DNA of 51,014 nucleotides, from sequence record NC_054896.1; one strand, 5' to 3'. Positions 2 through 47,394 of this stretch are shown here, in pieces; the stretch's first letter is position 1; every line of letters starts with the position of its first letter. The position numbers were made by a program, and so were the translations under genes. Source of the stretch: Escherichia phage tiwna. A model generated the notes under the pieces. It saw only the letters and a program-made list of their open reading frames with translations, searched no databases and was not told the DNA's origin.

Positions 2-337
2 GCCTTGCGCGCTATTGGCCTGGACAACATTGTTTGCGCCTTTGACGATTCGCCGAACGTGGTTAAGCACTTCCGCAGATTGGGGATCACAACCTATCAG
101 GTCACGGAATACGACAAGCCACACGCTCACATACAATCTCACGGCGTGGAGTCAATAAAGATCACGAAGCGCGCCCGATTCGTTGGCAGCAAAGATAGCC
201 TTGTCAATGCCAGCTTTACCAGAGGAATAGCCTATGACGTTGTTTCTTATCATGACAAGAGTTTTATAGTTCATGATGATTCTGGATGCGCCTGGTCATT
301 CGATCATAGTGACGGCGATTTTGTTAATGCGGAGTAA
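2..337 (+). CDS. hypothetical protein, probably 5'-truncated at the window edge (no in-frame ATG)
   Basis: Open frame runs from the window start to a stop at 337; the next gene starts 7 nt later with an RBS. Confidence 0.3.
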   Translation, partial: ALRAIGLDNIVCAFDDSPNVVKHFRRLGITTYQVTEYDKPHAHIQSHGVESIKITKRARFVGSKDSLVNASFTRGIAYDVVSYHDKSFIVHDDSGCAWSFDHSDGDFVNAE

Positions 338-343
338 TTATAA

Positions 344-535
344 ATGGCTGACTTTATGCATCAAATGATTGTTGTATTTAAGGGCAGTGAAGATGAAGAG
401 GTTCGCGAATGCTTCACCATTGAGAAATCATACAGCGCATCTTTAACCAGTTTTGGCAACATATCTATGATTGATGATAATGGCGATCCGTGGATTTTTG
501 AAGATGATACGGATTGCTTTGAGATTAAAGAATAG
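344..535 (+). CDS. small acidic hypothetical protein (63 aa)
   Basis: ATG with upstream GGAG; D/E-rich product; its TAG stop is the first triplet of the conserved box at 533. Confidence 0.5.
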   Translation: MADFMHQMIVVFKGSEDEEVRECFTIEKSYSASLTSFGNISMIDDNGDPWIFEDDTDCFEIKE

Positions 536-606: not shown

Positions 607-906
607 ATGTTAGTACGCAATGCGATCTATAAATTCACAAACGAGATGGGGGTTCACCTTTACCACGTAAACCATCAAGGCAACACCTCAATTGCGATGT
701 ATCGCGACGCTCGCGGGAAGTGTAGGCCTTCTCTTCGTGGCAGAATTTCTCCTGCGTTCTTCATGTTTAGATGGTATGCAACAGAACAAATCAACCATAA
801 CCATTGGAATAAAGTATTGATTGCAGGAGGCCGAATTGTTGCCAGTCACGTAGTCGATCCTTGCAAACTAACCAGCCGCCAGCTTCGCAAAATGGCGCGC
901 AAATAG
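607..906 (+). CDS. hypothetical protein (99 aa)
   Basis: RBS gaggaagagg before ATG; TAG stop embedded in the box at 904. Confidence 0.5.
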   Translation: MLVRNAIYKFTNEMGVHLYHVNHQGNTSIAMYRDARGKCRPSLRGRISPAFFMFRWYATEQINHNHWNKVLIAGGRIVASHVVDPCKLTSRQLRKMARK

Positions 907-921
907 CACTTTTTGTTAAAA
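904..921 (+). promoter_or_regulatory. conserved box with -10 TATAGT at 941-946 in a hairpin loop
   Basis: TAGCACTTTTTGTTAAAA; hairpin ggcctgcggTATAGTaggcc. Confidence 0.5.
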
Positions 922-977
922 TCAACTTTACGGCCTGCGGTATAGTAGGCCCATCAACAACAAACGAGGATTAAATC

Positions 978-1241
978 ATGGCTAACAAGATCGAATTTTT
1001 TAAAGCGGTAGACATTATCGACGGCGCGCCTAGCTTCTTCGCTATCCATTCTATTGACGGCAAGGATATTGGGTACAACGTTATCCGTCGAGATGGAATC
1101 TCAAAACTTAGTGACCTGGTAGGTCATGTTGTGTCAAACGGGAAGTGTGCATGGCCCGATTCGCCACGAGAGCCACGCCGCCGCGACATGGTAGAGCCTG
1201 TTCTGCTTTACACGCTGGTAGTAGAAGGAGAAAATAAATGA
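978..1241 (+). CDS. hypothetical protein (87 aa)
   Basis: RBS gagga before ATG; tight packing with the next gene. Confidence 0.5.
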   Translation: MANKIEFFKAVDIIDGAPSFFAIHSIDGKDIGYNVIRRDGISKLSDLVGHVVSNGKCAWPDSPREPRRRDMVEPVLLYTLVVEGENK

Positions 1242-1423
1242 TTTGGCTACTTGCTTTTTTGGTTGTTTTTCTTTACATTTCAGGCCTGTTTACGTTCCGA
1301 ACATTGGTGAAATATTCTGACGCGACAGACAAGGACGATAAAATAGTTCTCGCTTTCTGGTTTGTTTGGGTGTGGTTAGCAATTTACGAGATCATCAGAG
1401 ACAAACAGAAATTTGATTGGTGA
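1238..1423 (+). CDS. small membrane protein (61 aa)
   Basis: ATGA start/stop overlap with the upstream gene; hydrophobic stretch LLAFLVVFLYISGLF. Confidence 0.45.
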   Translation: MIWLLAFLVVFLYISGLFTFRTLVKYSDATDKDDKIVLAFWFVWVWLAIYEIIRDKQKFDW

Positions 1424-1479
1424 TTCTTGCTATGGCGCATTCATGCAGTGCGCCATGTTGAGAAAACCTAAAGGGGGAA

Positions 1480-1623
1480 ATGATGCGTAACTTTGAAAAA
1501 ATCGTTACCAAAAAGAAGCGTCGCGGATACGATGAGCATGTAGAGTTTGTGAACAAGCAACGCAAGAAGCGCCATAGGCGCGAAATGCTACATAATATCA
1601 ACTCACGCTACGGAGATCATTAA
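1480..1623 (+). CDS. small basic hypothetical protein (47 aa)
   Basis: Strong RBS aaggggg before ATGATG; K/R-rich; ends 3 nt before the kinase ATG. Below the 60-aa cutoff of the ORF track. Confidence 0.35.
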   Translation: MMRNFEKIVTKKKRRGYDEHVEFVNKQRKKRHRREMLHNINSRYGDH

Positions 1624-38861: not shown

Positions 38862-39077
38862 ATGAAAGATTTTATTAACGCAGCTACCGCCGGATCTGGC
38901 GGTTCATCTATCGCAAGCGCCGCTACAGGGCAGTTAACCATTGCTATTGCCAGCTTTGTTTTAATGGCTGCATTCGGTGCATGGGGCGCTTACCTTCGCT
39001 GGCGTGATAGTAAAAAATTCCACGAGGCGATCGAAAAAGGTGATATTCAAAAAGCTATTGAGATCAGGGGCAAGTAA
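38862..39077 (+). CDS. holin (possibly pinholin-type)
   Basis: 71 aa with a Gly/Ala/Ser-rich first hydrophobic segment, a second TM and charged C-terminus; immediately upstream of the endolysin. Confidence 0.6.
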
Positions 39078-39960: not shown

Positions 39961-39976
39961 TGCCTCCTTTATTTTT
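39945..39976. terminator. bidirectional terminator
   Basis: Hairpin aggaggcttaatgcctcct with flanking A- and T-runs, overlapping the spanin stop. Confidence 0.55.
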
Positions 39977-40199
39977 ATGCGTCGGGCCACATATGAGTTT
40001 CGTTTGTTGGCTTGTTCGATTCTTCGTACTGCCTTACTTCAATGCTGCAAGTGTCGCCGTACAGTTCTGCAATCTTGCGCTCATTTTCAACAGCCGATTG
40101 CTCACTCCATCCAAAATCCCTGTCATAAATTGTCGGGATTTCAGCAGAAGATCCGTTGTCATGATTATATACGCGAACTACTAAAAACTTGCTGGACAT
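39975..40199 (-). CDS. hypothetical protein (74 aa)
   Basis: First gene downstream of the minus-strand promoter module at 40236-40279. Confidence 0.45.
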   Translation of the reverse strand: MSSKFLVVRVYNHDNGSSAEIPTIYDRDFGWSEQSAVENERKIAELYGDTCSIEVRQYEESNKPTNETHMWPDA

Positions 40200-40233: not shown

Positions 40234-40279
40234 CAAATATACCCGACACTAGGCCGGGCGTTTTAACAAAAAATGCTAT
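40234..40279 (-). promoter_or_regulatory. conserved box plus hairpin plus -10; right arm of the ~46-bp inverted repeat
   Basis: Reverse complement reads ATAGCATTTTTTGTTAAAAcgcccggcctagtgtcgggTATATT. Confidence 0.55.
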
Positions 40280-40470
40280 TCCATACGCTTTACCGTAACC
40301 AGTAATACACCATCATCATTGCATAAAACATGTTCAGTGGTGCTAAAAGCGCGCATATCTGAATAAAGTAGCGTAAGTAAAGCATGAATAAAATCCTCAT
40401 GTGATATTGAATTTACGGCGCAGTGCTTCAAGATCTTGTCTATTAGCTTTTGCCTGGAACAATTCATCAT
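40276..40470 (-). CDS. hypothetical protein (64 aa)
   Basis: GGGGAG RBS; stop codon is the TAG of the box; overlaps the upstream gene by 74 nt out of frame. Confidence 0.4.
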   Translation of the reverse strand: MMNCSRQKLIDKILKHCAVNSISHEDFIHALLTLLYSDMRAFSTTEHVLCNDDGVLLVTVKRME

Positions 40471-40792
40471 CGCCCATCTCCCCTATTCTCGCCATATCCC
40501 TGATCCAGTCGTTGCGCATACCATCCAGGCTATACAATTCGAATCCGAAAGGCCGCTTTGACGATCCTTTGGACCAGTATTTACCGCAGACCCCATCTAT
40601 ATAGCCAGCCGTCATCATTCTTGCGCAAAATTCCTTAGATGCAAGGCTGGCGAACATTCGCGGCGTAAGTCCGGCGGCCCGTGCGAGCCGCTCACATTCT
40701 CTATGCTGATAGATAAATTTGGCTATGTGCTGCCTGTTAAACCAGTCGTATGACTCACACCATTTATACAGATCAAGCAAAAACATAATCAT
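40397..40792 (-). CDS. hypothetical protein (131 aa)
   Basis: ATGA coupling to the upstream ATPase gene. Confidence 0.45.
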   Translation of the reverse strand: MIMFLLDLYKWCESYDWFNRQHIAKFIYQHRECERLARAAGLTPRMFASLASKEFCARMMTAGYIDGVCGKYWSKGSSKRPFGFELYSLDGMRNDWIRDMARIGEMGDDELFQAKANRQDLEALRRKFNIT

Positions 40793-42369
40793 CCCAGCAG
40801 TATTGGATTGACAAAAATAACACCATTAATAACACAAACATAATTTCTTTCTTCCAGCATTGGCAGCAAGTGCCCTTCTATCCTCTTCATTACGCCAGCT
40901 TGACCAACGAAAGGTTTTACCTTTCTCGCTGATTCGTACAGGGCGCGAATATTCAGAATCCCTTTATTAGCCTTGCCGTGTCTAGTGATCAATTCAATCA
41001 ATTTGCCCATTTCAGCATCATCACCAGCATAACCAGAAGCATTGGCGGCGCTAATGTATGTTTTGCTCAATTCCTGAAACATGATCAGCGCCTCTTGCAT
41101 TGTTTCCACGTCGATCTCTTTCGACTTCTGCTGGTATCCAGCAGGATTAAACCAGTTGCGGATAACATGCAGGACGGAAGCAAGCCTGATCACCTGTTTA
41201 TCCATTTTACCCAGCGCACCGCGTAACATTGTATGAGAATACTTTCCGCCGTCTGCAAGATGCGGTTCCATATCCTGGCGAGCAATGTTGAGCACTCGCA
41301 TAGCTGAACGGCTTATTTTCAGCGATATATTTGATTCGCTCATGATGTTATGCACCAATTGATAATATTGGGCCTTCAATTCAGGATCCACCGCCTCATA
41401 GGTAGAATCACCATTTTCATCAATGAATGAGCGACGGCCTAAGAATGATTCCTCACGGACCAACAAAAAGCGCTCACTCACACCGATACCGCGCGATCCA
41501 GCGTCCATGATTCCGCTTATCGTTTCATCCTGGGCTATAACGCTCATACATCCAAGCGCGCGAAAACTCATGTTATTGTCAGCATTAGCACGGGCGATTG
41601 ATACGTGACCATTATCCCACGCCTTAAGCACTAGCTCGCTGTTAGTCTTCCTTTCGCTATTGGCATAGGTCAAGCCTAACAGGCTGTTAATACTTGTTGC
41701 TTCGTCAGATATTACGGCAAAGTTACCTTGCTTGTTGTTGATTTTCGCCAAGCCTTCTGGAGTTGTATCTGAAACAGGGAAAGTTATATCACACATTTTT
41801 TCCAGCTTCTCCTCCAGATCCTCTTTTTCCTGGTATAGAGATTCCATATCAGCGCCTGATCTTTCGCTTTTCATCTCCTTTGCAAGACCTGCCAACTTTG
41901 CCTGTATTTTCTTTCTTTCCTTGCGGCGTTGCTCGTTGATCTTCTCAACTTCCGCAATCATCGGAGCAATAGCCATGCTGTTGATCGCAGATTTACCAGT
42001 TGACGGCGGCTGGCTTGTAACGACGTAAAGCGCAGTCGGCTGATCGGTCCCGTGATAGTCAACCGTAAAGCGTCCAAGCATGGCGGCAGAAATGCAGCCG
42101 ATAAAGTGCATGTAAGCCGATGATTCAGGGAATTGAACGGATCGCGCAATGCTGCGTGATAACTTTCCGACAACATCAATATCATTACCAAGAGAAATTA
42201 CGGGGTAGCGATCGTGACCGCTATTTACATCCTTCACGTCGCCCCAAAAGCTGGACGACTGGCGATAGCCGTTAGCCTGAATTGATACGCGAACTGGTGA
42301 AAGGTTCTGGCTTTCAGCCATAGCGATTATTTGCTGTGGAGTTAATTTGTTCGTTTCTAATGAAAACAT
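40789..42369 (-). CDS. P-loop NTPase of unknown function (526 aa)
   Basis: Walker A SQPPSTGKSAI and Walker B-like FAVISDEA; GGAG RBS; first gene after the promoter box at 42423. Confidence 0.5.
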   Translation of the reverse strand: MFSLETNKLTPQQIIAMAESQNLSPVRVSIQANGYRQSSSFWGDVKDVNSGHDRYPVISLGNDIDVVGKLSRSIARSVQFPESSAYMHFIGCISAAMLGRFTVDYHGTDQPTALYVVTSQPPSTGKSAINSMAIAPMIAEVEKINEQRRKERKKIQAKLAGLAKEMKSERSGADMESLYQEKEDLEEKLEKMCDITFPVSDTTPEGLAKINNKQGNFAVISDEATSINSLLGLTYANSERKTNSELVLKAWDNGHVSIARANADNNMSFRALGCMSVIAQDETISGIMDAGSRGIGVSERFLLVREESFLGRRSFIDENGDSTYEAVDPELKAQYYQLVHNIMSESNISLKISRSAMRVLNIARQDMEPHLADGGKYSHTMLRGALGKMDKQVIRLASVLHVIRNWFNPAGYQQKSKEIDVETMQEALIMFQELSKTYISAANASGYAGDDAEMGKLIELITRHGKANKGILNIRALYESARKVKPFVGQAGVMKRIEGHLLPMLEERNYVCVINGVIFVNPILLG

Positions 42370-43832: not shown

Positions 43833-44057
43833 TCAAAACGGAAAACAGCGCGGACAACTAGGATCGAAATCGCATCCACAATCATTAACAATCATATTGG
43901 GATCTGCAAATATTGCGCTTGATTCAAGATCCATATCCATATCACCTAAAGCCTCATCAAGAGTCTTAATTTTATATGCCACTTCAAGCGCCGCCTCTTT
44001 ATTTAGTCCGGCATCTTCTGCCATTTGAAGGCGCTCAAAAAAACCGTCCTGACTCAT
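43833..44057 (-). CDS. hypothetical protein with Cys-rich C-terminus (74 aa)
   Basis: C-terminal CGCDFDPSCPRC; acidic N-terminal half. Confidence 0.45.
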   Translation of the reverse strand: MSQDGFFERLQMAEDAGLNKEAALEVAYKIKTLDEALGDMDMDLESSAIFADPNMIVNDCGCDFDPSCPRCFPF

Positions 44058-44171
44058 CGCATAACTCCCTTAATAACAGCCAAGATAATAGCCAGGCCAG
44101 CAGCAGTAACCAAAAATCCAACCGCGCCAATAATCGAATAAAAAAAGAAATCAATAGCTTTATCTATCATT
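44055..44171 (-). CDS. small membrane peptide (38 aa)
   Basis: GAGGTG RBS; single TM IIGAVGFLVTAAGLAIILAVI; ATGA coupling to the downstream gene; below the ORF-track cutoff. Confidence 0.35.
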
Positions 44172-44212
44172 TTTCACCTCATTTAAAAGGCGGCAAAACG
44201 CCGCCAGATTAA

Positions 44213-47124: not shown

Positions 47125-47394
47125 TTGACGGTTAGCGCCAGGATTGTGATCGAAATAATCAAAAGTAATCATTCGTAATCAAATCACGTCAAAATGATGA
47201 TTGCCTTTGCAAATTTGATGAGAAAAGCAATCACGTTTAATCATTGGTTGCAGGGGAGATAGTGAAACCTTCCCCTCTCGCCTCAATTTTCCGCCTGGCT
47301 GTCAGTGGTTGTTATGTTCCGTTCCCGCCTGTTCTTTTGTTGACCTTCCGCAAAATACGATAACAAAAAATAACAAACAATACCTATATAATAC

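What the first reader, a model, noticed from the sequence alone, without database searches (positions are those of the whole stretch)
40276..40792. 74-nt out-of-frame overlap between two minus-strand genes (possible frameshift, overlapping genes, or sequencing indel)
ORF 40397..40792 (131 aa) and ORF 40276..40470 (64 aa) overlap by 74 nt in different frames. The 64-aa ORF has a good RBS (GGGGAG) and ends on the TAG of the box, like the other genes here, so both look real. An overlap this long is atypical for the otherwise 1-4 nt overlaps in this genome.
Basis: seen in the sequence. Interest (0 to 1): 0.4.

Follow-up and report, generated by a model that had tools for sequence, protein, structure and literature searches.

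The report
Real overlapping gene pair, T1-like phage
The 74-base overlap is not a sequencing error or a frameshift: two real, separately started genes of a T1-like phage share this stretch of DNA in different reading frames, an arrangement kept across hundreds of related phages; it is an ordinary kind of feature, though the small gene is missing from many annotations, including that of phage T1.

Summary
The window is a Warwickvirus (T1-like, Drexlerviridae). Gene A (40397..40792, 131 aa, T1 gp10 homologue, predicted winged-helix protein) and gene B (40276..40470, 64 aa, phrog_9539) overlap by 74 nt, with B in the +1 frame.

The same pair occurs in 61 of 66 related sequences. B's ATG always sits at the same spot inside A's conserved ...S-D-E-E-L-F motif. 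A's stop wanders, giving overlaps of 35 to 146 nt.

Substitution patterns switch from A-constrained to B-constrained just after that motif (B dN/dS about 0.3, A about 1). No A-B fusion protein exists among 1.84 billion proteins. Sequencing indel, spurious ORF and programmed frameshift are all rejected.

A's core ends at ...ELF. B-less subfamilies have a 111-aa A that stops there and lack the ATG. A's 19-codon tail is therefore a read-on into B.

That tail is probably not junk in this lineage. Where a homing HNH endonuclease cassette has split the overlap, it carries recoded copies that preserve the A tail in one and B's N-terminus in the other.

The function of both proteins is unknown, and expression of B is inferred, not shown. 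This is a known kind of feature, of modest interest.

The parts
40789..42369 (-). Upstream gene of the operon: DUF3987-type DNA helicase (T1 gene 9 homologue). Its stop overlaps A's start (ATGA).
   Evidence: Pfam PF13148, E = 4.8e-44. phrog_2373 'DNA helicase', E = 4.9e-244. T1 annotation.
40397..40792 (-). Gene A, 131 aa ('YdbL' in some records; phrog_2794; T1 gene 10 homologue). Predicted winged-helix domain (aa 1-100), then the conserved motif, then a variable tail.
40457..40480 (-). Codons for the end of A's conserved core (E-M-G-D-D-E-L-F). B's ribosome-binding region and start codons are embedded here.
   Evidence: Alignments A2 and A3 show D108, L111 and F112 invariant, with the tail variable after F112. 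In B codons 2-6 the most variable position is A's third codon position.
40478..40483 (-). Shine-Dalgarno sequence GGGGAG of gene B, lying inside A's codons G-E.
   Evidence: Read directly from the sequence. Duplex energy is -8.3 kcal/mol.
40465..40470 (-). Tandem start codons ATGATG of gene B, formed by A's GAT-GAT-G (Asp-Asp-Glu).
   Evidence: An ATG sits at the homologous spot in 60 of 61 B-bearing sequences. The motif Asp codon is GAC (no ATG) in 4 of 4 B-less phages.
40276..40470 (-). Gene B, 64 aa, function unknown (phrog_9539). Predicted helix-helix-beta-hairpin fold.
   Evidence: phrog_9539, E = 1.6e-25. tblastn finds it in 690 records. dN/dS is 0.09 in the B-only part and 0.30 in the overlap. 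AF2 pLDDT is 75, with helix 4-20 encoded in the overlap.
40397..40470 (-). The 74-nt overlap, read in two frames: A codons 108-131 plus stop, and B codons 1-25.
40400..40456 (-). A's 19-codon C-terminal tail (QAKANRQDLEALRRKFNIT). It is a read-on extension over B's N-terminal helix and carries the lineage-specific motif ALR(R/K)(K/R)(F/Y).
   Evidence: The tail is variable or absent in other genera. A-frame dN/dS is 0.8-1.3 with a confidence interval that includes 1. It is nevertheless preserved at protein level in the recoded copy of the HNH cassette.
40261..40278 (-). Copy of the genome-wide direct repeat ('box') TAGCATTTTTTGTTAAAA. Its first triplet is B's stop codon.
   Evidence: 17 copies in the window against 0.26 expected. 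It matches the 21-nt repeat described in phage TLS, whose function is unknown (PMC11447400).
40241..40259 (-). GC-rich hairpin followed by ATATTTGTTT, directly after the box. It scores as terminator-like.
   Evidence: Comparable hairpins followed by a TATAAT-like hexamer sit after other boxes.
40290..40400 (-). Third-frame ORF (36 aa, hydrophobic) with an ATGA junction to A's stop. Judged not to be a gene.
   Evidence: tblastn finds it only in relatives at least 97% identical, while the B frame is found in all.
39975..40199 (-). Next gene downstream (74 aa, phrog_27210), after the box and hairpin. Listed for context.

Best explanation
Two separate genes of the early/replication operon of a T1-like phage share 74 nt in different frames.

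Gene A encodes a roughly 110-aa winged-helix protein whose conserved core ends with ...S/G-D-D/E-E-L-F. Gene B encodes a 64-aa helix-helix-hairpin protein. B is translated from its own Shine-Dalgarno sequence (GGGGAG) and ATG, both written inside the last codons of A's core. The ATG is made from A's Asp codon GAT plus the following G.

Because B's coding sequence follows immediately, A's frame has no stop at the end of its core. It runs on for 19 more codons over B's first helix until a TGA happens to occur.

In that stretch B is the frame under clear purifying selection. A's tail is an evolutionarily labile extension, but in the Warwick/Hanriver-type lineages it has acquired a conserved basic motif (ALRRKF) that is itself selected. 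In this window the segment is therefore probably truly dual-coding.

Shown: conservation, frame-specific constraint, the conserved start, and the independence of B from A. Inferred: that B is translated, from which of the two ATGs, and what either protein does. The likely role is replication or regulation alongside the adjacent DUF3987 helicase.
For: (1) The B frame is conserved in 690 phage records, and hits cover aa 1-64 or 7-62. The alternative 36-aa frame is not conserved.

(2) In 61 of 66 sequences examined (49 unique), B's ATG lies at the same homologous position with a B-frame stop 3-12 nt upstream. Overlap lengths are 35, 47, 56, 59, 71, 74, 77, 89 and 146 nt.

(3) Codon-position entropy switches along the overlap. 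In B codons 2-6, A's third position is the most variable (0.59/1.35/1.09). The rest of the overlap has B-like periodicity (1.02/0.75/1.26), like the B-only region (0.93/0.62/1.51).

(4) An OLGenie-style estimate over the 51-nt tail of the overlap gives dN/dS of 0.30 [0.11-0.63] for B and 1.28 [0.62-3.1] for A. In the T1 clade p(A-nonsyn, B-syn) is 0.136 and p(A-syn, B-nonsyn) is 0.000. The control in A's core gives the opposite pattern.

(5) B-less subfamilies (Braunvirinae, Rogunavirinae) have a 111-aa A that ends at ...LF(S/A/K)*, with GAC at the motif Asp in 4 of 4. B-bearing phages keep the ATG in 60 of 61, although GAT:GAC usage in the window's long genes is only 43:20.

(6) B persists when it is separated from A by an HNH gene (tonnikala, BEK7, Fulano1 and others) and when A carries stop codons (L064).

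(7) In the HNH cassette the overlap is resolved into two recoded copies. The A tail DLEALRRKFNIT becomes QIKALRKRYGLE with 17 of 39 nt identical, a BLOSUM62 score of 25, 0 of 20,000 nulls reaching that score, and the B frame broken. The B' copy KLIDEILKFCATSQISHDDF has 37 of 60 nt identical, a score of 76, 0 of 20,000 nulls, and the A frame broken.

(8) Among 1.84 billion proteins, only 17 representative clusters match B. All are stand-alone proteins of 49-72 aa, and most align from residue 1.

(9) B's SD is strong in this window, at -8.3 kcal/mol.

(10) AF2 places B's first helix (aa 4-20) inside the overlap, and places A's tail in a low-confidence region.
Against: - There is no direct expression evidence (ribosome profiling, proteomics) for B or for A's tail, and none was found in the literature searched.
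- B's SD is weak in many relatives: the family median is -3.1 kcal/mol.
- The A-frame dN/dS confidence interval includes 1, so selection on A's tail rests mainly on one HNH-cassette event and on motif conservation across a few genera. Stop avoidance in A's frame is only marginal (P = 0.059).
- B is absent from two subfamilies, so it is not essential to all Drexlerviridae.
- The sequences are phylogenetically related, so the counts are not independent events.
- The B structure model used only 4 sequences (pLDDT 75).
Confidence: 0.85

Rival explanations
1. A's 19-codon tail is purely neutral read-on. Only about 15-20 nt (B's start region inside A's ...SDDELF codons) is functionally shared, and the rest of the overlap codes usefully for B alone.
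For: - A-frame dN/dS is about 1 in the tail.
- In the T1 clade all changes are B-synonymous and A-nonsynonymous.
- Tail length and sequence vary widely, and the tail is absent in several genera and in B-less subfamilies.
- AF2 confidence is low for aa 101-131.
Against: - The HNH cassette carries a heavily recoded copy of the tail. It keeps the A-frame peptide, and the stop at the same codon, while destroying the B frame (0 of 20,000 nulls).
- ALR(R/K)(K/R)(F/Y) is shared by Warwick-, Hanriver-, Henuseptima- and Changchun-type phages.
- With random synonymous codons for B, A's frame would usually stop after 32-35 nt. P(overlap >= 74 nt) is 0.059.
Confidence: 0.35
2. Programmed +1 ribosomal frameshift: ribosomes translating A shift into the B frame and make an A-B fusion protein. 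On this reading B is not an independent gene.
For: B is always in the +1 frame relative to A. However, this follows trivially from descent without frame-breaking indels.
Against: - No conserved slippery or stop-codon shift motif exists, and A's stop context differs between clades.
- The would-be junction moves between 35 and 146 nt from B's start.
- B keeps its own ATG with an upstream B-frame stop in 60 of 61 sequences.
- B persists behind an HNH gene and beside a broken A.
- No RNA structure is predicted around the site (z = +1.27), and there is no Rfam hit in the overlap.
Confidence: 0.03
3. Sequencing or assembly indel: A and B are one gene, or A is really shorter or longer, and the overlap is an artefact of a single-base error near 40400-40470.
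For: None beyond the unusual overlap length.
Against: - The identical arrangement is present in independently sequenced isolates and metagenomic contigs (58 records cover at least 80% of a 1.1-kb query; loci L001-L065). It also holds in distant genera at 40-60% protein identity.
- Both frames carry their own conservation signal.
- No fused homologue exists.
Confidence: 0.01
4. B is real but starts further downstream, for example at the in-frame TTG at codon 14, so the true overlap is short.
For: - Some annotators call shorter versions of 38-57 aa (BFVD targets).
- One relative (L027) has ACG in place of the ATG and would have to start at a TTG five codons in.
Against: - B-like codon periodicity and protein conservation begin at alignment column 10, which is B codon 7.
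- The only start codons upstream of that point are the conserved ATGs.
- The predicted first helix spans aa 4-20.
- The SD is correctly spaced for 40470/40467.
Confidence: 0.05
5. B is a spurious, untranslated ORF. Its apparent conservation is a by-product of conserved DNA serving A or a regulatory element.
For: B is left unannotated in T1, Sip, RefSeq vB_EcoS-95, ADB-2, SP-126, P818, Henu7 and Sin4.
Against: - Two thirds of B lies outside A and shows dN/dS of 0.09 with strong third-position variability.
- Protein similarity persists at 38-45% identity.
- The ORF is intact in all 66 sequences.
Confidence: 0.02

Closest known systems
Out-of-frame same-strand overlapping genes produced by overprinting or stop-codon displacement in small phages (for example phiX174 genes A/B/K and D/E, and the MS2 lysis gene L, which is in the +1 frame over the coat/replicase junction). 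Basis: established knowledge.
   Same: - Two proteins are read from one DNA stretch in different frames.
- The downstream gene has its own internal RBS and start inside the upstream gene.
- Constraint on the two frames is asymmetric, and one of the two peptide segments is a younger, poorly structured extension.
   Different: - Here only the termini overlap (25 codons of a 64-aa gene), not a fully nested gene.
- The genome is 51 kb of dsDNA and is not under extreme size pressure.
- The overlap length drifts between genera (35-146 nt).
Translationally coupled ATGA/TAATG junctions, the ordinary 1-4 nt overlaps of phage operons. Basis: established knowledge.
   Same: Same operon logic: adjacent genes on one transcript with no intergenic spacer. 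A itself is joined to the helicase gene in this way (40789..40792).
   Different: B's start lies 74 nt upstream of A's stop. Termination-reinitiation at the stop cannot explain B's initiation, so B needs de novo initiation at an internal SD within translated mRNA.
Programmed frameshift pairs of siphophages (the tail assembly chaperones G/GT, -1 frameshift). Basis: established knowledge.
   Same: A long out-of-frame ORF follows and overlaps an upstream ORF in a siphovirus genome.
   Different: There is no slippery heptamer, the shift would be +1, the downstream ORF has a conserved ATG and SD, the junction is not fixed, and B survives physical separation from A.
Free-standing HNH homing endonuclease cassettes of T-even, T5 and T1-like phages, which insert between or into conserved genes and carry cleavage-resistant, recoded flanks. 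Basis: established knowledge; annotated as 'homing endonuclease' in BEK7.
   Same: In relatives, an HNH ORF sits exactly in this overlap. The cassette is found in two genera at 89-100% identity, and the flanking host coding sequence is recoded while the proteins are preserved.
   Different: The window itself has no HNH gene here. Endonuclease activity and its target site were not tested. The special point is that the target lies in a dual-coding segment, so the cassette carries one recoded copy for each frame.

Membership tests
Dual-coding (out-of-frame, same-strand) overlapping gene pair | Both ORFs are conserved as ORFs in diverged relatives. | tested here: met
   A is found in 833 phage records and B in 690. 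Both are intact and overlapping in 61 of 66 sequences.
Dual-coding (out-of-frame, same-strand) overlapping gene pair | Purifying selection on the downstream gene's frame within the overlap. | tested here: met
   B-frame dN/dS is 0.30 [0.11-0.63]. In the T1 clade p(A-syn, B-nonsyn) is 0.000 against p(A-nonsyn, B-syn) of 0.136.
Dual-coding (out-of-frame, same-strand) overlapping gene pair | Purifying selection on the upstream gene's frame within the overlap. | tested here: inconclusive
   The first ~5 codons (SDDELF) are clearly A-constrained. For the 19-codon tail, dN/dS is 0.8-1.3 with a confidence interval that includes 1. However, the recoded copy in the HNH cassette preserves the A-frame peptide, with 0 of 20,000 nulls reaching its score.
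Dual-coding (out-of-frame, same-strand) overlapping gene pair | Both products are made in infected cells. | not testable with these tools
   No Ribo-seq or proteome data were available, and the literature searches found none.
Programmed ribosomal frameshift site | A conserved slippery or shift-prone motif at a fixed junction. | tested here: not met
   The A stop position varies from 35 to 146 nt after B's start, and its sequence context differs between clades.
Programmed ribosomal frameshift site | The downstream ORF lacks independent initiation signals. | tested here: not met
   The ATG is conserved in 60 of 61 sequences, a B-frame stop lies 3-12 nt upstream, and the SD scores -8.3 kcal/mol in the window.
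Programmed ribosomal frameshift site | A stimulatory RNA structure. | tested here: not met
   Folding 40380-40540 gives z = +1.27 against shuffles. There is no Rfam match in the overlap.
PHROG phrog_9539 (gene B) and phrog_2794 (gene A) | A significant full-length profile match. | tested here: met
   B matches at E = 1.6e-25 over positions 5-64 of 64. A matches at E = 2e-60 over positions 1-126 of 129. Both families are of unknown function.
Winged helix-turn-helix DNA-binding proteins (gene A) | Helical bundle plus beta-hairpin wing fold. | tested here: met
Winged helix-turn-helix DNA-binding proteins (gene A) | Sequence-family membership, or demonstrated DNA binding. | tested here: not met
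   No Pfam, NCBIfam or PDB sequence match was found. DNA binding is not testable here.
E. coli YdbL (DUF1318), the name given to A in some records | A match to the YdbL/DUF1318 family profile. | tested here: not met
   A has no Pfam or NCBIfam hit at all. The 'YdbL' label is an inherited annotation, not evidence of homology.

The most novel reading that the evidence does not exclude
The 74-nt segment is genuinely dual-coding: A's basic tail ALRRKF and B's first helix are both selected. It is also the homing site of a free-standing HNH endonuclease. The endonuclease cassette 'de-overlaps' the two genes by carrying one recoded copy for each frame, which amounts to a natural experiment showing that both frames matter.

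B would then be an overlooked gene, present in most Drexlerviridae subfamilies but unannotated in phage T1 (complement 43993..44193 of NC_005833). It would probably work with the winged-helix protein A and the DUF3987 helicase in replication.
Probability: 0.45. Interest if true: 0.45.

Novelty: new member of a known kind. Interest (0 to 1): 0.3.

Why it matters
The practical value is mainly for annotation.

- A conserved 64-66-aa gene is missing from the reference annotation of phage T1 and from many RefSeq Drexlerviridae records, probably because gene callers and curators penalise long overlaps.
- Other records truncate it to 38-57 aa.
- The 'YdbL' name carried by gene A has no support.

Biologically it is a clean, well-sampled example of how a long overlap arises. 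A downstream start is embedded in the last conserved codons of the upstream gene. The upstream frame then runs on until a chance stop, and the read-on tail can later acquire function. The HNH cassette that splits the overlap into two recoded copies is a neat natural control for dual coding.

None of this changes how phage gene expression is understood.

Tried and rejected
- **Third-frame ORF 40290..40400.** This 36-aa hydrophobic ORF has a canonical ATGA junction with A and looked like the 'proper' downstream gene. I rejected it because it is conserved only in relatives at least 97% identical.
- **RNA structure or known RNA family at B's start.** This could have explained translational coupling or frameshifting. 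Nothing was found.
- **The search for homologous proteins for B.** It gave only 4 hits because of the word-index limit for a 64-aa query. I used tblastn on phage records and IMG/VR loci instead.
- **afdb50 fold search.** Not available.
- **Lower B-synonymous divergence in the overlap as evidence for A-tail constraint.** In the T1 clade the rate is lower in the overlap than in the B-only region. I rejected this reading because the overlap's rate (0.136) matches the synonymous rate of A's core (0.165). The B-only 3' part is simply more diverged, probably through mosaic recombination.
- **Literature.** Searches for this gene pair, for 'YdbL' in phages and for T1 DUF3987 found nothing relevant. 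The only useful paper was the TLS re-annotation, which describes the 21-nt repeat.

Full report
**What the window is.** The region is 99% identical to Warwickvirus phages of the family Drexlerviridae (T1-like), such as vB_Eco_Sip, Poky, vB_EcoS-95 and PeterMerian. The finding lies in a minus-strand early/replication operon. The order is a DUF3987 helicase (40789..42369, T1 gene 9 homologue), gene A (40397..40792, T1 gene 10 homologue), gene B (40276..40470), a repeat 'box' with a hairpin, and a 74-aa gene (39975..40199).

**Check of the observation.** Both ORFs and the 74-nt overlap are exactly as stated, and B is in the +1 frame relative to A.
- GGGGAG (40483..40478) lies 7 nt before a tandem ATGATG. 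Its predicted anti-SD duplex (-8.3 kcal/mol) equals that of the helicase gene and is stronger than 96% of internal out-of-frame ATGs in neighbouring genes.
- B's TAG is the first triplet of TAGCAyTTTTTGTTAAAA. That box occurs 17 times in the window against 0.26 expected, and in 10 of the 17 copies the TAG closes an ORF of 39 aa or more.
- In the PeterMerian annotation, 32 adjacent same-strand gene pairs overlap, with a median of 4 nt. This is the longest; the next are 65 and 44 nt.

**Which frame is coding downstream of A?** Three ORFs compete here: B, and a 36-aa hydrophobic ORF (40290..40400) that has the textbook ATGA junction with A's stop.
- tblastn of each against diverged relatives settles it. 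The 36-aa frame is found only in relatives at least 97% identical. The B frame is found everywhere.
- Across the phage collection, B's frame is conserved in 690 records down to about 38% identity, and hits cover residues 1-64 or 7-62.
- B matches phrog_9539 at E = 1.6e-25.
- A search of 1.84 billion representative proteins finds only 17 clusters. All are stand-alone proteins of 49-72 aa, most aligned from residue 1, and none is an A-B fusion.

**Is the overlap conserved?** I collected 15 annotated loci and 50 IMG/VR loci.
- In 61 of 66 sequences (49 unique), A and B are intact and overlapping.
- B's ATG lies at the same homologous position, inside A's codons for the conserved motif ...(M/L)(S/G)D(D/E)EL F, with a B-frame stop 3-12 nt upstream.
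- A's stop moves, giving overlaps of 35, 47, 56, 59, 71, 74, 77, 89 (T1 itself) and 146 nt.
- There are five exceptions. Two have an HNH gene between A and B. Two have a broken A but an intact B. One has ACG instead of ATG, with a TTG five codons downstream.

A sequencing indel is therefore excluded.

**Where does constraint lie?** Protein alignments show A conserved up to ...SD(D/E)ELF. After that comes a tail that varies in sequence and in length, from 1 to more than 40 residues.
- *Codon-position entropy.* In B codons 2-6 the most variable position is A's wobble position (0.59/1.35/1.09 for B positions 1/2/3). From B codon 7 onward the pattern is B-like (1.02/0.75/1.26), as in the B-only part (0.93/0.62/1.51).
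- *Two-frame estimator.* I wrote an OLGenie-style estimator. For the last 51 nt of the overlap it gives dN/dS of 0.30 [0.11-0.63] for B and 1.28 [0.62-3.1] for A. With closer pairs only, the values are 0.35 and 0.8.
- *T1 clade.* Differences in the overlap fall almost entirely on sites that are B-synonymous and A-nonsynonymous (p = 0.136). Sites that are A-synonymous and B-nonsynonymous have p = 0.000, and sites nonsynonymous in both frames have p = 0.007.
- *Control.* The same estimator applied to A's core gives the mirror image.

Constraint thus passes from frame A to frame B within about 15-20 nt of B's start.

**Origin of the overlap.** Braunvirinae and Rogunavirinae lack B. In those subfamilies A is 111 aa and stops right after ...LF(S/A/K). 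The motif Asp codon is GAC in 4 of 4, so there is no ATG. B-bearing phages keep an ATG there in 60 of 61 sequences, although GAT:GAC usage in the window's long genes is only 43:20. In one relative the ATG is kept even though the A residue changed, to AAT-G. So A's core ends at ELF, B's start is written into A's last conserved codons, and A's tail is a read-on into B's coding sequence.

**Is A's tail junk?** Probably not in this lineage. Three observations argue for some selection.
1. The motif ALR(R/K)(K/R)(F/Y) is shared by Warwick-, Hanriver-, Henuseptima- and Changchun-type phages.
2. If B's protein is kept but its codons are resampled, A's frame normally hits a stop after 32-35 nt, which is where phage NBD2's A ends. 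P(overlap >= 74 nt) is 0.059.
3. At least 8 records in two genera carry an HNH homing-endonuclease cassette inserted in the middle of the overlap, after the equivalent of window position 40436. The cassette replaces the overlap with two recoded copies.
   - In the first copy, A's tail DLEALRRKFNIT* becomes QIKALRKRYGLE*. Only 17 of 39 nt are identical, yet the BLOSUM62 score is 25, the stop falls at the same codon, and 0 of 20,000 randomisations reach that score. The B frame there has two stops.
   - In the second copy, downstream of the HNH gene, B's N-terminus is preserved (KLIDEILKFCATSQISHDDF against KLIDKILKHCAVNSISHEDF). Here 37 of 60 nt are identical, the score is 76, 0 of 20,000 randomisations reach it, and the A frame is broken.

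This is a single evolutionary event, so I treat dual coding of the tail as likely rather than proven.

**What the proteins are.**
- *B.* The model (pLDDT 75, from a shallow alignment) has helix 4-20, helix 24-41 and a beta-hairpin at 46-61. Its first helix is encoded by the overlap. Fold search finds only its own uncharacterised homologues.
- *Role.* The conserved order helicase-A-B suggests a role in replication or its control. This is inference only.

**How B is expressed (inferred).**
- B is most likely translated by de novo initiation at its own SD and ATG within mRNA that is also being translated in frame A.
- Reinitiation after A's stop is implausible, because B's start lies 74 nt upstream of that stop.
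- No RNA structure or Rfam element is present.
- The SD is strong here and in the T1/Hanriver types but weak in many other genera, with a family median of -3.1 kcal/mol. Expression level may therefore differ between lineages.

**Frameshifting.** It is disfavoured by the moving junction, the absence of a conserved shift motif, B's own start signals, and B's survival when it is separated from A.

**Annotation state.** B is annotated in LL5, U136B, NBD2, K50, tonnikala and PeterMerian. It is absent from T1 (where it would be complement 43993..44193 of NC_005833, 66 aa, with an 89-nt overlap on gene 10), Sip, RefSeq vB_EcoS-95, ADB-2, SP-126, P818, Henu7 and Sin4.

**Verdict.** This is a real, conserved, out-of-frame overlap between two independently initiated genes. 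B is the dominant frame, and A's tail is a lineage-specific read-on extension that is probably functional here. It is a new, well-documented example of a known kind of feature. Interest is modest.

Noticed in passing
window, 17 sites. Plus strand: 533, 904, 3508, 33460, 35949, 37020, 48439, 50116. Minus strand: 12351, 16101, 26727, 40261, 42423, 43097, 45296, 45802, 47106 (start coordinates).: The direct repeat TAGCAyTTTTTGTTAAAA occurs 17 times against 0.26 expected, always in the direction of the local genes and at gene ends. In 10 copies its TAG is the stop codon of an ORF of 39 aa or more. In most copies a TATAAT-like hexamer follows 19-20 nt later, and in several a short GC hairpin lies between box and hexamer. 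It matches the 21-nt repeat aaATAGCACnnnTTGnTAAAA described in phage TLS, whose function is an open question (PMC11447400). The TTGTTA-to-TATAAT spacing of about 22 nt is too long for a standard sigma-70 promoter.
   Followed up: partly
L015 (phage T1, NC_005833), complement 43993..44193: The T1 reference genome has an unannotated 66-aa homologue of gene B (MKTCLANVETLIDRNVELCARLQLTKEEFEQGLL...). It overlaps gene 10 by 89 nt and ends just before the annotated terminator at 43966..43988.
   Followed up: yes
L004 (tonnikala) 735..1208; L068 (BEK7) 762..1148; L069 (Fulano1) 768..1241: An HNH homing-endonuclease gene is inserted exactly in the A/B overlap in at least 8 phage records of two genera. 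It leaves a 12-codon remnant of old B (MMNCSRQKLIDNK*) inside A's tail, and a restored B' downstream. In BEK7 the HNH ORF is itself truncated.
   Followed up: partly
L066 (PeterMerian) 38894..38958 and 47291..47334; the equivalent positions in the window were not mapped: Two other long same-strand overlaps appear in the annotation of a 99.7%-identical relative: 65 nt between a Dcm-like methyltransferase and bas05_0051, and 44 nt between bas05_0078 and bas05_0079. They could be real overlaps or mis-called starts.
   Followed up: no
L064 (IMGVR_UViG_2974611450_000001), about 1170..1590: In this T1-like genome gene A carries two in-frame stop codons while gene B is intact. This is either sequencing error or a natural A-null phage that keeps B.
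   Followed up: no
L027 (IMGVR_UViG_3300045988_024360), about 300..500: B's ATG is replaced by ACG because A's Asp codon is GAC. The only in-frame start is a TTG five codons downstream, so the first residues of B appear dispensable.
   Followed up: partly
GenBank records MG0656xx ('Campylobacter phage A131, C4, A15a, E6 ...', hits H52-H56, H100): About 20 records labelled Campylobacter jejuni phages are T1-like coliphage sequences, 70-78% identical to this region. They are probably contaminant or mislabelled genomes.
   Followed up: no
L011 (Salmonella virus STSR3, MT500539): Gene A is split over three frames, and neighbouring genes are fragmented and oddly named (a 51-aa 'unimolecular spanin' lies over B). 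This looks like a record with many frameshift errors.
   Followed up: no
L073 (phage Sadiya) 616..813: In this B-less Rogunavirinae phage a different, unrelated 65-aa gene follows A with a normal ATGA junction. The slot downstream of A is therefore a site of gene replacement.
   Followed up: no
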